This document shows, one piece after another, positions 3,822-42,884 of a DNA stretch of 64,000 bases; within the stretch, counting starts at the first letter, position 1, and every line of letters starts with the position of its first letter. The position numbers and the translations under genes were made by a program. The DNA is from Octopus vulgaris (Eukaryota). The notes beneath the pieces were generated by a model. It did not search any database. It saw only the letters and a list, made by a program, of their open reading frames with translations, and was not told where the DNA came from. The DNA is taken from NCBI GenBank assembly GCA_951406725.2, contig OX597818.1, positions 5,890,001 through 5,954,000 of the forward strand, written 5' to 3'.

Positions 3822-4603
3822 ATAACAAAGTGGAGTTGTAGGGTACCGCACGAGTGGAATTATATACGAAAGAAGGTTTGAAAATGCAATTTAAAAGATG
3901 TATATTTACTTTGCCGGTTTCACTCTTTGGAGAAAGTTTGTCAAAAGTAACATGTAGAAGTTTGGTTGCGTTAATTATTGGTTGTTACAAATTGCTACAT
4001 TACATATATACAGTCTTTGGTAACAGGGACATGTTAAGGACATAAAAAAAGTTCAACAAGTTCCTTAAAATATTGGACACAAAAGATTACTACATAAATA
4101 TACATTCTCAAGGACATGCTTAAGATAGTTTCCAGGAGGAATTGATATTGGTATTGGTATTGTATCTGTATATTCAAACATGCACAGAATATTTGTTGAC
4201 ACAGAGTACTACAATTCATATAAATATACATTCTTTGGTGACAAGAGCATGTTGAGAATATAAAAAAGTTTAACAAGCTCATTGAAATATTGGGCACAAA
4301 AGATTACAACAAATATATTATACATTCTCAAGATAATTTCCAGAAGGAATTATTAAAAAAGTTCAGTAAATATTGGTGTACACGTACAGAATATTATGAG
4401 TTCAAAAAGGTTTACATTATTTTTATGTCCTTAACATGTCCCTGTTACCAAAGACTGCATGCGTAATGTAGCAATTGTAACAACCAATAATTAACGCAAC
4501 CAAACTTCTACATGTTACTTTTGACAATCTTTTTCCAAAGAGTGAAACCGGTAAAGTAAATAAACATCTTTTAAATTTTATTTTCAAACCTTCTTTCGTA
4601 TAT
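3822..4603. repeat. Fold-back element: inverted arms 3862-4047 and 4421-4603, spacer of degenerate tandem repeats, decayed HHR at 4515-4559
   Basis: Arms are reverse complements with scattered substitutions; ttactt-TTGACAA-tcttt ttcc aaaga-gt-GAAAC-cg-GTA-aagtaa; bounded by (TA)n. Confidence 0.85.
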
Positions 4604-4734
4604 GTATATATATATATATATATATATATATATATATATACATATATATTTATATGTGTGTATATATATATATATATATATATATATATATATATATATA
4701 TATGTATGTGATCTTTTGAGTACTACCAGCAAAA

Positions 4735-4915
4735 ATATTTTTTTCCTCTGTCTTCCCTTCTCGGTATCTTTCCTTCTCCTTGTTTCCGACGAAGAGCTCT
4801 GCTCGAAACGTTAAAGCCTCCTTCCCTTCTTTCCTGAGCGTCAAATAATACTTTAATTGTTCCACGTTCTCGCCTTGCTGTGTTTTTTTCTGTGTTTTCT
4901 TGTTTAGATTAACTA
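4735..4915 (+). mobile_element. PLE pseudo-LTR fragment (family A) with minimal HHR at ~4782-4816
   Basis: gttt-CCGACGA-a-GAGC tct GCTC-GAAAC-GTT-aaag; homolog of 3590-3800. Confidence 0.7.
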
Positions 4916-5262
4916 TACCACCCGCCTCACTAGCACCCACCATCGACTCTATCCCATCATCCACTCCTTCACCTGCACCTCCAGCAATATTATCTATTGC
5001 GTCTCTTGCTCTCTCTGCAATTCCTTGTACATCGGACAAACGGGACGCCGTTTGGCTGACCGGTTCGCGGAACACCTTCGTGACATCCACCTTGCGAACG
5101 ACACACCGGTCTCACGCCATTTCCGCTCCACCGGTCACTCCTTGCAACACCTATCTGTGTTCGGTTTGTCCTTACACAGAGGCCATCCGGATTCCCGTTT
5201 GCGCCGTGAACAGGAATTAATCTTCTCTCTTCGCTCTTATACGCCATTTGGTCTCAACTCTC
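4916..5262 (+). pseudogene. 5'-truncated Penelope-like element, GIY-YIG endonuclease domain
   Basis: In frame: FTCTSSNIIYCVSCSLCNSLYIGQTGRRLADRFAEHLRDI...PVSRHF...REQELIFSLRSYTPFGLN, the hallmark PLE GIY-YIG C-terminus. Confidence 0.92.
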
Positions 5263-5925
5263 CCCCCTCCTCATCTAACCCCCTCTCCCCCTCCTCACCT
5301 ATCCTTCCCCCCCGGACCCCTACTTCTTCAGTCCTTCATCCTTTCAACCCTACTGCCCTTCCCTTCTTCCCTCTTTCTCCCTCCCTCCTTCCCTCTTCCC
5401 CTTCCCTCTGCTCCCTCACTCCCCTTCTCTCTCCCTCTCCCCCTCTTTCCTCCTTCCCCCTCCCCCTCCTCTCCTCTTCCCCCCTCTCCTCTCCCTCTTA
5501 TTCCCCTCCACTTCTCCCCCCCTTCTCCCCCTCCCCCTCTTCTCACTACACCACACGACTTTACACATCACATCATACTAATACATACACCAACTAATAC
5601 ATACTAATACGTACTAATACATACTAATACATACTAATACATACACCAACCCTATACATACACACGTCCAGGCCCCTCATACGCACTTATACTCTCTCAT
5701 ACACACACACACACACTTATACATACTAATACGTACTAATACATACTAATACATACTAATACATACACCAACCCCATACATACGCCTGTCCAGACCTATC
5801 CTACGCACTAATACTCTCTCATACACACACACACACACACACACCCTTATACATACTAATACATACTAATACATACACCAACCCTATACATACACACGTC
5901 CAAACCCCTCCTACGCACTAATAGG
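5263..5925. repeat. Polypyrimidine tract (5263-5545) followed by ATACATACTA-type minisatellite and (CA)n, in the PLE 3' region
   Basis: C/T-only runs and tandem 10-mers are directly visible. Confidence 0.9.
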
Positions 5926-39051: not shown

Positions 39052-40892
39052 ATATATATATATATATATATATATATATATATATATATATATATATATA
39101 TATATATGTATATATATATATATATATATATACATATACATATATATATATACATACATACATACATGTATATTTAACCAGACTTTGATAAGTAGTGGGT
39201 TAGATGCTCTAATTAGTTTTATTCTGCATTCTAGATTTTGTTTGGATGAAAGAACTCTATGAGAAAAATCTTATGGTAAAAACCTTCTAAAAAGATATTA
39301 GCTACATAAAGAATTGTTTGGCTTGAAGTGCCTAAAATAAGTGTGATTATTTTAAGAAATAAAAATACTTTTGTCCTCTTAAGATAAAAAAGTTATTATT
39401 TGAATTCAAATGAGTGAGTTCATCAAGACCAATATTTTGGAGAAAATCTATCTAAAAAATTATGCATAAAAATTATAGTAATAGAATCATTACCTGGAAA
39501 AAAGTGAACGAGAATAAAAAATGCGGGCGCAGATTTCTAAAATATTCCGAAGCATTTAACCTGGAAAAGAACAAAACAAGCAAGTAATTAAGCCTGGAAA
39601 GTAAAGGACAAGAGAAAAAAATTTAAAATATTACTGCTGAAGTGAGAATTTATTAAATAGTTTTCTGAAATTGTTCAATAACAGTGTGCGGTGTTTTGTT
39701 TTTATATTCGTTGATGATTATTGCATTAAAAAAAATTTAAGTTAATATTTTTGATTAATTTTTTTGTATTAAGCCTAATCATTTCTGCCTTATTTGTACA
39801 ATTATAGTATTTTTCAATTTGATTTTTTTAACGAAATTCATTATCCAAAAATTTTATATCATACGTATTGTGTTATAAAGCTAAAATCATATAGAATATG
39901 TATAATCTAAAACGAAAAAAGAGCAAAACAAAATTTGTTTTTAAAGAAACAAACGAATTAATTCCTTTAAAGCTTGCATCAACAGACAACAAAGTAATTT
40001 ATAGAAAGCTAATAAAGAAACTGAGTGCAAAATGTAAAAACTAATCTCCATTTCTTTTTAGAAAGGAGTTAGGGTTATTATTGTCACTTTTGCTTATTGT
40101 CAGATTTTTTTTACATATATAAATTTGTAATAACAAATTTTCAATGTGTAAACTTGCAGGCAATTAGTCTTTTCACTAGAATTGAAAATAAATAGCTTCT
40201 TGAGTATTTTTAATCTAAATTTTATGTAAAAATAAGAAATAAAAATCGGCATTTATTACTATTGTAGCTTTAAAATTCTGACTCCGGCGGCAATATTTTC
40301 ATTCTTCTCCTGTTCTTTTCCAGACTGAATTACTGCTTTTCCAAGTTCAATACGAAAGAACTTTCTGGGATTTTGCTCCCGCGCGTTTCATTCTAGTATA
40401 TAGATATTGTGGGTAATAAAGGAATAGGTATATAGATATTGACAAATACAAAGAGACATTCGTACGTACAAGCATACGTACGTGCATGCATGCGTATATA
40501 CATACATACGGACGGAAAGATAGGTAGATGGACGGATAGACTGACAAATAGACAGAAAGACAGACGGATAGATAAACAGTCAGACAGACAGGCGGATAGA
40601 TAGATAGTTAGGTAGGTAGGTAGGTAGGTAGGTAGGTAGGTAGGTAGGTGGGTAGGTAGGTAGGTAGGTTTGCAGGCAACTTGTCAGGGTATTCAGTAAT
40701 TGTGTATGTAATACTCTAGAGTGTACAACAGTAAAAGAGTGGAATAGAAAACGCAATATATAAATGCCTCATTGCAAAATGATGTATTATTGAGGTTCAT
40801 TATTTGTGTTCCTTAAAATTTCTTCGACACAAAATCATAACATCGGCTACCAATTGAATTATTGTGCATTCTTAGTTTTTCCATACCTCAAC

Positions 40893-41068
40893 TAATAGTA
40901 GTAGTAGTATTAGTAGTAATAGTAGCAGCAGCAGCAGTTGTTGTAGTAGTAGAAGTAGCAGTAGTAGTAGTAGTAGTAGTAGTAGCAGCAGCAGCAGCAG
41001 TGGTAGTAGTAGTAGTAGTAGTAGTAGTAGTAGTAGTAGTAGTAGTAGTAGCAGTAGTAGTAGTAGTA
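40893..41068. repeat. (GTA)n/(GCA)n trinucleotide microsatellite
   Basis: Directly visible. Confidence 0.97.
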
Positions 41069-42457
41069 TGAGGTCATCCGCTGCATCTACCATTTGTTGT
41101 TGATTTCCTACTCTGCCAGGTGTAACGCCCAGCTAAACGAAAACTGTTCTATGTAGATTAATATGTACCTATCAATCACACACGTACACCTACACAAAGG
41201 CGCACGCACACAAACAAAGACATATACAAGAACACAAGAACAAAGACACACAAGAACACACATATACAGACCATATGTACATATATCTGTGCGTGTGTTT
41301 ATGTTTAGATTACTATGAATTAAATATCTTTATTATCATAACAGGTTATGAGCTTAATAGGACTTATGAGAATAGAATTAAGTTATTCATTCCCGTAAAA
41401 TCCATTTTCAATATATTATATATACAATGGTGTTTATAAACTGAGTGTATAAAATGCTCTTTAAAATATTTGTAATGTAATGCCTCCCCAAGTGTTTAAT
41501 TAACTTTCATTAAAAAATAAATACGCTCTTTGAAATATTTTCGATGATTCCCAATACATAATTATGACTCAAATGCTTTTTGAAGACTTTTAAGAATTAA
41601 TCCATCATAATATTTAATTGCTGATTCTTGAGAAAAAGTCTTTCAAAATGTCTCGCGAATGCATTTGTATTTTTCTACTTCTTGGCTTTACGAAATTTCT
41701 ATAATTACTAGCGTGAGCTTAATCATTGTTTAACTGACTTCCGTTATTTCGGCTTTCTAGTCAATATTTTTCACATTAAATTATCTCTTTCTCTTTTCTC
41801 ATCAAATATTGTTCTTAACTATTTATTATGCTTGACTGCTATACTTGTTACAGTGAGTTACATATTAGTTGCCCGTCGTCTATCCCGATAGAGTCATCTC
41901 ATCTCACCTAATTATTGTCATCATCTTTTTCTTCATAATCATCTGCTTTCTTTCTCTTACCCTACTCTCACCCTCTCTCTCTCCCTCTTTCTCCTCAATG
42001 CCTCTGTGTTACGGAGTATAAATTATACGTGTATATATGTGCGTTTGCGCGGATCGTTTGTACGAACATTTATTTTTGTTTGAAGACGTCTAAGTTATCA
42101 CGTGTACTTCAATACATCCTTCGCTTCTAATCAGCGATGTATGCGTATACTGCGTGAAGAGCAGAGGTGAAAGTTTTAATAAATTTAATATGCTCTGTCG
42201 TGCAGTCTTGCGTTGGTTTAAACAATTCTGAATTGCGAAGCTACAGTTAACCGCTAACGATAGCAGTATTTGAATTTAGTGCTTTTGCTCTTGAAAAATA
42301 AGAAATAATATAAAAACTACTCCGAAGAATTTACACAATTTACATTGACATACAGCAAAACTAACTCAAGGTCACTTATGCAATCACTACTCTCCTTATC
42401 AGTGACGATCTATACATATATATATATATATATATATATATATATATATATATATAT

Positions 42458-42682
42458 AAATTGAATAAGGATGGAAATTGATGTTAATCAATTAAAACCA
42501 GTGGCCTACCATATTAAAAAAATCCGAAGATTAAAATATTTTTTACATACAAAATTTGAAGGTCTTACCACTAAAAGTGGACTGTCATTTGTATGTAAAA
42601 TATATTTTAATCTTCGGATTTTCTAACATGCTAGGCCACTGGTTTTAATTGATTCACATCAATTTCTACTCTTATTCAATTT
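42458..42682. repeat. Imperfect inverted repeat (arms ~95 bp) abutting (TA)n
   Basis: aaattgaataag...ttacatacaaa / tttgtatgtaa...cttattcaattt. Confidence 0.88.
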
Positions 42683-42884
42683 TAAATAATAAAAAAAATG
42701 TTCTCTAACCGGTAAATTGCCTGCTGCAGTTTATTAACTGCAGGGTAGATTTTCAATCTCAGCGCGCCAAAGTGAAGGCATTTGAAAAATACACATATAT
42801 ATAATTTGTTGAACTCTATGTATGCTGGACTCTGGTCAAGCGTTTTTGTATCTAGTTCTGGAAATTATGTTTGTAAACGACAGA

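What the first reader, a model, noticed from the sequence alone, without database searches (positions are those of the whole stretch)
3822..42800. One recurring fold-back architecture: (TA)n - short arm - mirror arm - unique tail - (TA)n
Seen in at least 7 independent insertions from about 6 families (3822-4603, 6615-7662, 9069-9812, 14832-15437, 28709-28893, 32248-32478, 38508-39051, probably 42458). One arm abuts the (TA)n almost directly, usually at an AT/TA microhomology. The other carries a 40-160 nt tail. Where present, HHRs point outward. Established: PLE insertions can have an inverted, truncated pLTR and a 3' tail. Inference: the cDNA 3' end folds back and self-primes second-strand synthesis, then joins the (TA)n target before the tail is copied. 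This would make foldback a routine integration route and a source of long hairpins.
Basis: partly seen in the sequence, partly recalled or inferred. Interest (0 to 1): 0.8.

Follow-up and report, generated by a model that had tools for sequence, protein, structure and literature searches.

The report
Twin-primed Penelope retroelement insertions
These hairpin-shaped insertions in TA repeats are truncated ends of what are likely Penelope-like jumping genes in a layout already described, but their anatomy shows a single fold-back cannot build them all and suggests that both cut DNA ends likely prime copying of the element's RNA at two fixed start points.

Summary
The architecture is real: all 8 listed sites, plus a missed one (28382-29247), are (TA)n-flanked head-to-head inverted units with a tail on exactly one end. 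It is the published 'inverted pLTR + tail' form of Penelope-like elements (PLEs), and self-priming was proposed in 2013. At 9068-9808 the long, hammerhead-bearing arm is the tail-less one. The tail-less end is a fixed family site, also used by solo copies. In 80 Neptune-like loci from other hosts, all 11 units with both ends visible have one tail and one short end. In 6 the tail-less arm is longer, 2 of these carry a tail-only inverted piece, and 9 of 11 have a target-site duplication. Best model, inferred: twin priming, in which each target end primes reverse transcription at one of two fixed RNA start sites and the two cDNAs are joined. Fold-back may still form the centres of the 5 near-symmetric hairpins. 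I found no paper applying twin priming to PLEs, but key older papers were unreadable.

The parts
3825..4603 (-). Unit A: tail ~3825-3861, arm 3862-4048, spacer 4049-4419, mirror arm 4420-4603 (short end). Long arm carries the tail. Variant hammerhead core in both arms (by eye).
   Evidence: internal direct repeat 3976-4143 ~ 4190-4351 crosses the arm/spacer border; skew test inconclusive
6616..7662 (-). Unit B: tail 6616-6672, arm 6673-6816, spacer 6817-7518 with internal (TA)n, mirror arm 7519-7662. Long arm carries the tail. Short end followed by two imperfect repeats of its last bases (7663-7686).
   Evidence: (hammerhead 6833-6791 crosses arm/spacer)
9068..9808 (-). Unit C, the key case: tail-less long arm 9068-9691/2 (minus strand, hammerhead 9208-9179) joined head to head to a 120-nt plus-strand piece (arm 9692-9730 + tail to ~9808).
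   Evidence: skew flips at 9691 (p 5.6e-5); family contigs (22/30 vs 3/30)
14834..15436 (+). Unit D: near-perfect hairpin 14834-15277 with 3-nt loop and a small complex centre; tail 15278-15436; hammerhead in both arms.
28382..29247 (+). No hammerhead or ORF evidence, so PLE origin rests on layout only.
   Evidence: A/T composition same-orientation p 6.8e-5, flipped p 0.9; skew turn at 28545, 35 nt off the junction
28710..28893 (-). Unit E: tail 28710-28780 + hairpin to 28893, nested in the TA tract inside L; same family as F.
32248..32476 (+). Unit F: hairpin 32248-32405 with a 0-nt loop on a 6-nt palindrome; tail 32406-32476; variant hammerhead (by eye).
37653..38412 (-). Unit M (tentative, old): short-ended hammerhead-family copy from 37653 on the minus strand, and a 32-nt match to the very end of that family's tail on the plus strand at 38381-38412, abutting a microsatellite. 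Candidate tail-only partner with no mirror.
   Evidence: score 36; maximum 27 in 464 real windows and 33 in 2000 shuffles; not significant in the looser test
38509..39049 (-). Unit G: tail 38509-38584, hairpin arms 38585-38813 / 38823-39051 with 9-nt loop; hammerhead in both arms.
42459..42794 (+). Unit H: older hairpin 42459-42682 (83%), tail to ~42794; no hammerhead found.
60618..60686 (+). Solo copy of the E/F family ending at the same short end, with no mirror arm.
16921..17414 (-). Solo hammerhead-family copy with a 95-nt tail. Its relative at 29696-30090 (+) is a solo copy that stops at the short end.
4917..5261 (+). C-terminal GIY-YIG endonuclease fragment of a Neptune-like PLE, followed by a 3' region with a hammerhead motif at 6099; not itself an inverted unit. 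Used as the probe for related loci.

Best explanation
These are 5'-truncated insertions of likely Penelope-like retroelements, likely made by twin priming: the element's endonuclease would cut both strands of the (TA)n target, one DNA end would prime reverse transcription at the RNA's distal start site (copy with tail), the other at a fixed internal start site 40-160 nt upstream (copy without tail), and the two cDNAs would be joined head to head. Shown: one tail and one short end per unit; a fixed short end; either arm can be the longer; tail-only partners exist; a single target-site duplication flanks whole units in the related family; both arms share rare variants in several units. Inferred: that both primers act on one RNA molecule, that the trailing polymerase displaces the leading cDNA to make the mirrored overlap, and how the centre is sealed. 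Near-symmetric hairpins (D-H) would arise when both cDNAs stop at one RNA end or barrier, or when the centre is closed by a fold-back.
For: C: hammerhead and spacer lie on the tail-less arm. Family contigs continue the tail-bearing arm into the reverse complement of that spacer (19 contigs; 22/30 identity vs 3/30 for the window's own neighbour) and continue the spacer past 9692 in other sequence. Short end fixed: E = F = solo 60618; 30 and 40 contigs enter (TA)n behind 9737; in 80 related loci 24 end short, 28 with tail, 28 unclear. All 9 window units and all 11 related units with both ends visible have one tail and one short end (0.5^9, 0.5^11 if independent). In 6 of the 11 the tail-less arm is longer (L025, L062, L084, L068, and tail-only L056, L077). 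All 6 have duplications of about 10-16 nt, p from <0.001 to 0.015 against random flanks. Arms share non-majority alleles: L068 9 vs at most 2 with neighbours, L010 9 vs 3, L072 10 vs 3. In vitro, a PLE protein cleaves and extends both target strands, and its two start sites bound the tail (PMC11167929, parts 1-2 of 4 read).
Against: Five of 9 window units end within 10 nt of symmetry, far more than independent cDNA lengths give (p ~1e-5 under a crude exponential model), so an extra coupling is needed. No RT or endonuclease sequence was found in any inverted window unit, so their PLE status rests on hammerheads and layout. The related loci are other families in other hosts that do not target (TA)n. 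No listed contig spans C or bridges its central junction, and the two raw-read runs barely matched. L rests on base composition only and M is weak. L025, L084 and L022 share 0 rare alleles between arms (short overlaps), and shared alleles could also reflect one master copy or later conversion. L037 and L072 show no duplication. Most related copies with a visible 5' end show no inverted partner within 700 nt (14 of 18 tailed, 8 of 10 short; L022 and L068 among the 14 have partners further out). PMC11167929 reports no difference in start site between the two strands, which does not by itself give the one-tail rule.
Confidence: 0.7

Rival explanations
1. One reading: a tail-first cDNA folds on itself, primes the second strand, and joins (TA)n before the tail is copied. 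Impossible as the only route; possible for the centres of some units, with the short end still set by a second priming event.
For: A and B have the spacer on the tail arm; 5 of 11 related units have a longer tail arm. D, G and H have 3-9-nt loops. Near-symmetry is in excess. Fold-back duplications of ordinary DNA at (TA)n exist in this window (11757-11969, 57661-58877). Self-priming was proposed from palindromic junctions (PMC3846280, parts 1-4 of 5 read).
Against: Cannot make C, probably L, or 6 of 11 related units, because the tail is absent from the strand that would be the template. Does not explain solo short-ended copies (60618; 29696-30090; L078 with a 9-nt duplication). Arms of D, G and H pass 18-26 equal or better AT/TA runs before the short end. 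E and F have 1- and 0-nt loops. C's centre has 1 nt of overlap.
Confidence: 0.3
2. A free hairpin cDNA is completed with tails on both arms, and the element's endonuclease trims one tail at the fixed site during integration ('EN-mediated resolution').
For: Can in principle give every class, including tail-only units. PMC8557442 (passages read) attributes the tail to endonuclease-mediated resolution. PMC11167929 cites that the tail is needed for recognition by the Penelope endonuclease.
Against: Needs fold-back across loops of hundreds of nt with 0-1 nt of overlap (C, L050, L056, L084). Priming in vitro is on target DNA, with start sites at the tail borders. Several duplications run 1-4 nt into element sequence at the short end (read), as expected of a target primer annealing there.
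Confidence: 0.12
3. Host repair of breaks in fragile (TA)n copies nearby sequence in inverted orientation after insertion, so the layout is unrelated to retrotransposition.
For: Fold-back insertions at breaks are described in yeast (PMC11724301, abstract only).
Against: Does not give family-fixed short ends, the tail piece in C (no local template), or the same layout with target-site duplications outside microsatellites.
Confidence: 0.05
4. The inverted repeats are terminal repeats of DNA transposons (MITEs), or fold-back read artefacts in the assembly.
For: TA flanks resemble Tc1/mariner targets (recalled). D and G arms are almost identical. Raw reads did not cover the sites tested.
Against: One repeat is always internal by a tail length; arm length varies within a family (E vs F; five other junctions in family C); hammerheads are present; arms differ by substitutions in A, B, F and H; mirroring stops at family-fixed sites.
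Confidence: 0.03

Closest known systems
Insertion units of endonuclease-positive Penelope-like elements: pLTR, adjacent inverted 5'-truncated copy, tail at one end, (TA)n bias (PMC8557442 passages; PMC3846280 parts 1-4; PMC2377424 and PMC8969392 passages)
   Same: Head-to-head inverted copy, palindromic junctions, tail on only one end and at either end, hammerhead near the 3' end, (TA)n targets as described for Naiad and Hydra (microsatellite bias also noted for Neptune).
   Different: Tails here are 40-160 nt, not 30-40. Units are stubs with no coding sequence. The passages read do not tabulate which arm is longer or describe tail-only partners, and they ascribe the form to self-priming or endonuclease resolution.
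PAc (Poseidon, Anolis) in vitro reaction (PMC11167929, parts 1-2 of 4; supplement text search gave no hits)
   Same: Two RT start sites bounding the tail; both target strands cleaved and extended; AT-rich targets; predicted dimer.
   Different: The text read does not link this to inverted pLTRs ('inverted' occurs once) and reports no strand difference in start site. Here the two ends always differ.
Twin priming of L1 (described in PMC9148063, passage read; the original paper is not held)
   Same: Two target overhangs prime on one RNA, one at its 3' end and one internally, giving an inversion inside one target-site duplication.
   Different: The internal site is fixed per family rather than anywhere in the RNA, there is no poly(A), and the 3'-primed copy usually overruns the internal site, giving long mirrored arms.
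Templated inverted duplications at double-strand breaks by fold-back (PMC11724301, abstract)
   Same: Fits the two non-element cases K and I at (TA)n.
   Different: Does not give family-fixed ends or tails absent from the local template.

Membership tests
Endonuclease-positive Penelope-like elements | ORF with PLE-type RT and GIY-YIG endonuclease | tested here: inconclusive
   Met for the neighbouring fragment 4917-5261 (GIY-YIG E 0.0037, below cut-off; 5725 relatives, two long ones with RVT_1 + GIY-YIG). No coding match in any inverted unit; they are truncated short of it or too divergent.
Endonuclease-positive Penelope-like elements | Type I hammerhead motif in the 3' terminal region, on the sense strand | tested here: met
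   C, D, G intact cores and B with one change; A and F variants by eye; E truncated; not found in H or L. Folding z-scores were unremarkable except B.
Endonuclease-positive Penelope-like elements | Inverted 5'-truncated copy with a tail on one end only | tested here: met
   9 of 9 window units; 11 of 11 related units with both ends visible.
Endonuclease-positive Penelope-like elements | Two fixed 3' ends bounding the tail, variable 5' truncation | tested here: met
   Families E/F, C and 16921/29696; 24 short and 28 tailed of 80 related loci. Not testable for A, B, D, G, H, L (single copies).
Endonuclease-positive Penelope-like elements | Target-site duplication around the whole unit | tested here: inconclusive
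   Unreadable inside (TA)n in the window. Met in 9 of 11 related units.
Neptune clade | Cys-rich linker before a C-terminal GIY-YIG domain | tested here: inconclusive
   Present in the relatives; the window fragment starts after it; no RT phylogeny was run; the clade of units A-L is unknown.
Twin-primed retrotransposon insertions (L1 type) | Inverted segments from one template inside one target-site duplication, including units with no duplicated overlap | tested here: met
   L056, L077 (tail-only) and L025, L062, L084, L068; shared rare alleles in L068. In the window only C is firm.
Twin-primed retrotransposon insertions (L1 type) | Both primers engaged on the same RNA molecule | not testable with these tools
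   Needs biochemistry. Shared alleles cannot separate one RNA from one master locus or from gene conversion.
TIR DNA transposons / MITEs | Fixed-length inverted repeats at both termini | tested here: not met
   One repeat is internal by 40-160 nt; lengths vary within families.

The most novel reading that the evidence does not exclude
Penelope-like elements integrate by programmed twin priming: a dimeric RT-endonuclease holds one RNA and starts two cDNAs, one from each cut target strand, at the two borders of the tail. The one-tail rule, inverted pLTRs, long hairpins, tail-only partners and solo short ends all follow from how far each polymerase runs.
Probability: 0.45. Interest if true: 0.72.

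Novelty: new variant of a known kind. Interest (0 to 1): 0.5.

Why it matters
How PLEs form their tandem and inverted insertions is named as an open task in PMC8557442. The arm-polarity count used here (which arm carries the tail, which is longer, whether a tail-only partner exists) can be run on any PLE-rich genome and separates fold-back from two-primer models. The in vitro system of PMC11167929 can test it directly. If twin priming holds, it ties the tail, the inverted pLTR and the predicted dimer into one cycle and explains a routine source of long hairpins in microsatellite-rich genomes. The architecture itself is ordinary for PLEs.

Tried and rejected
Rfam at E up to 1 gave 138 rows, nearly all miRNA-type hairpin matches, all below gathering score, and no hammerhead family; hammerheads were found by my own pattern scans. 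No whole genome is held, so the genome-wide count was not possible. Raw-read runs X22 and X23 barely matched C, so presence of the palindromes in raw reads is untested. Depth figures fall steeply from tail to hammerhead, but the tool warns they are not copy numbers, so I did not use them as evidence. Exact-pattern scans for family C found 0 hits in metagenome and viral contigs. Viral contigs gave 5 distant GIY-YIG loci, not used. The word-indexed protein search gave 1 and 0 hits. A candidate hammerhead in L was rejected. The skew test did not orient A. One reference offset was wrong by about 35 nt; that reference was dropped. Of the 80 loci, 18 had an upstream inverted piece; 7 were left out of the 11-unit count because one end ran off the contig or was disrupted (L006, L008, L010, L011, L014, L039, L043). 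A search for hidden tail-only partners or duplications next to 27 loci (25 without a detected partner, plus L022 and L068) found convincing duplications in only 3 (L049, L058, L078), and one 12-nt tail-like bit (L033) was too short to call. Wholesale copying of a pre-existing inverted master was rejected because central junctions differ between units while the outer ends are fixed.
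Full report
Setting. The window is 35% GC and dense in (TA)n. It looks like an octopus genome; that is recalled from its repeat landscape and was not tested. No whole genome is held. It contains a Neptune-like PLE endonuclease fragment at 4917-5261 and about 13 hammerhead-family units without a mirror arm (my tally).

Observation. Self-alignment with simple repeats masked confirms inverted arms at all 8 listed sites, here A-H, and adds L at 28382-29247, inside which E is nested. 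In 9 of 9, one arm runs into (TA)n and the other carries a tail of about 40-160 nt. No unit has two tails or none. A, B, C and L have long spacers; D-H are hairpins with 0-9-nt loops. Only E and F share a family. Hammerheads point outward where present. AT/TA microhomology at the short end is 4-6 nt in 6 of 9 and 2 nt in 3 of 9.

The test of fold-back. If a tail-first cDNA folds back, everything in the unit must come from that strand, so the spacer must continue the tail-bearing arm. A fits (an internal repeat crosses the border) and B fits (hammerhead crosses the border; skew). C does not. Its hammerhead is on the minus strand pointing to the tail-less end, and cumulative AT skew turns at 9691, exactly the junction. 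Contigs from two runs show the family order hammerhead - arm - tail: 19 contigs continue the tail-bearing arm into sequence matching the reversed spacer at 22 of 30 letters against 3 of 30 for the window's neighbour, and 3 contigs continue the spacer past 9692 in other sequence. So C is a 624-nt tail-less copy joined to a 120-nt inverted piece whose tail has no template in the long arm. No listed contig bridges that junction itself. L shows the same polarity by composition only. M (37653-38412) is a tentative tail-only case.

The short end is a fixed site. E, F and the solo copy at 60618-60686 stop at the same position. In family C, 30 and 40 contigs pass into (TA)n behind 9737. In a third family, 16921-17414 has the tail and 29696-30090 stops short with no mirror. 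Arms of D, G and H pass 18-26 equal or better AT/TA runs. This matches the two RT start sites that bound the tail in vitro (PMC11167929, parts 1-2 read).

Independent family. An alignment of 12 close relatives of the window's endonuclease fetched the best 80 of 532 confirmed loci in metagenome contigs. These are other families in other hosts and insert outside microsatellites, so duplications can be read. Main copies end with the tail in 28, short in 24, and unclear in 28. Eighteen have an upstream inverted piece; 7 were dropped for a missing or disrupted end. All remaining 11 have one tail and one short end. The tail arm is longer in L017, L050, L022, L037 and L072. The tail-less arm is longer in L025, L062, L084 and L068 (1778 vs 643 nt), and L056 and L077 carry only the tail, inverted. 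Nine of 11, including all 6 that fold-back cannot build, have a duplication of about 9-16 nt; L037 and L072 have none. Central overlaps are about 0-1 nt in L050, L056 and L084, a few nt in L017 and L039, and there is filler in L062 and L043. Of 11 loci with enough overlap, arms share non-majority alleles beyond all 15 nearest copies in L068, L010, L072, L039, L062 and L011 (the last three by a margin of 1-2), equal to the best neighbour in L017 and L050, and none in L022, L025 and L084.

Mechanism. Shown: paired tail and short ends, either arm longer, tail-only partners, single duplications. Inferred: both cut target strands prime cDNA, one at each border of the tail, probably on one RNA, since that makes the one-tail rule automatic; the trailing polymerase displaces the leading cDNA to make the mirror; the two 3' ends are joined. 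At (TA)n targets the short-end match is AT/TA simply because the primer is (TA)n. The excess of near-symmetric hairpins (5 of 9; p ~1e-5 under a crude model) needs coupling: both cDNAs stop at one RNA end or barrier, or the centre folds back. I cannot separate these. Fold-back of ordinary DNA at (TA)n does occur here (K and I), so that chemistry is available. A free hairpin trimmed by the endonuclease remains a minority rival.

Comparison with print. The inverted copy, the tail at either end and (TA)n bias are described (PMC8557442, passages; PMC2377424 and PMC8969392, passages). Self-priming was proposed from palindromic junctions, on an antisense template (PMC3846280, parts 1-4 of 5); any single-template self-priming has the same difficulty with C-type units. 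Twin priming is known for L1 (PMC9148063, passage). Searches listed no paper that, by title, abstract start or the passages I read, applies it to PLEs. The library lacks most subscription papers, I did not read the main older PLE reviews, and I did not open the supplements of PMC8557442 or PMC3846280. Also consulted without bearing on mechanism: 10.64898/2026.07.22.740005 (part 1 of 5), PMC13282606, PMC12910113 and PMC3649969 (passages). Earlier scan notes on other genomes call the layout ordinary; they are leads only.

Verdict. The proposed fold-back route is wrong as a general rule. The data point instead to twin priming at two fixed sites (confidence 0.7), which makes an open question in PLE biology testable. 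Interest 0.5.

Noticed in passing
window 57661-58877: Nested inverted duplication of ordinary DNA, centred on a (TA)13 tract inside a dispersed repeat (other copy 11970-12282): about 43 nt mirrored, a jump at a 2-nt overlap, then about 294 nt mirrored, after which the repeat resumes. A true fold-back at (TA)n on a genomic template.
   Followed up: partly
window 11757-11969: A 44-nt perfect inverted copy of the sequence just upstream of a dispersed repeat, sitting inside a TA tract 127 nt away.
   Followed up: partly
window 7663-7686: The short end of unit B is followed by two imperfect repeats of its last ~8 bases interleaved with TA, as if priming slipped and restarted.
   Followed up: no
window 59779-60289: An older hairpin (80%) with a 3-nt loop, and a further truncated copy of its core at 60239-60281 before (TA)n; family unknown.
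   Followed up: partly
window 33465-33498: A minus-strand hammerhead motif whose element ends one base after the predicted cleavage site and runs into (TA)n.
   Followed up: no
window 3058-3551: A hammerhead-bearing unit bounded by a 17-nt direct repeat, a possible long target-site duplication.
   Followed up: no
window 20993-22069: Tandem pair (period 599 nt, 98.5% over 478 nt), each copy with a hammerhead motif; retrozyme-like layout.
   Followed up: no
window 47790-49084: 41-nt inverted repeats around a transposase-like ORF (48312-48761, judged by eye), inserted in an RT-bearing element; a conventional TIR element for contrast.
   Followed up: no
window 9092-9154 and 9705-9759 (run X23): One raw-read run holds tandem arrays built from the short-end region of family C, suggesting a satellite derived from a PLE end.
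   Followed up: no
L011 1851-2028: A separate near-symmetric mini-unit (tail arm plus short arm) downstream of the main copy, showing the hairpin class in the related family too.
   Followed up: partly
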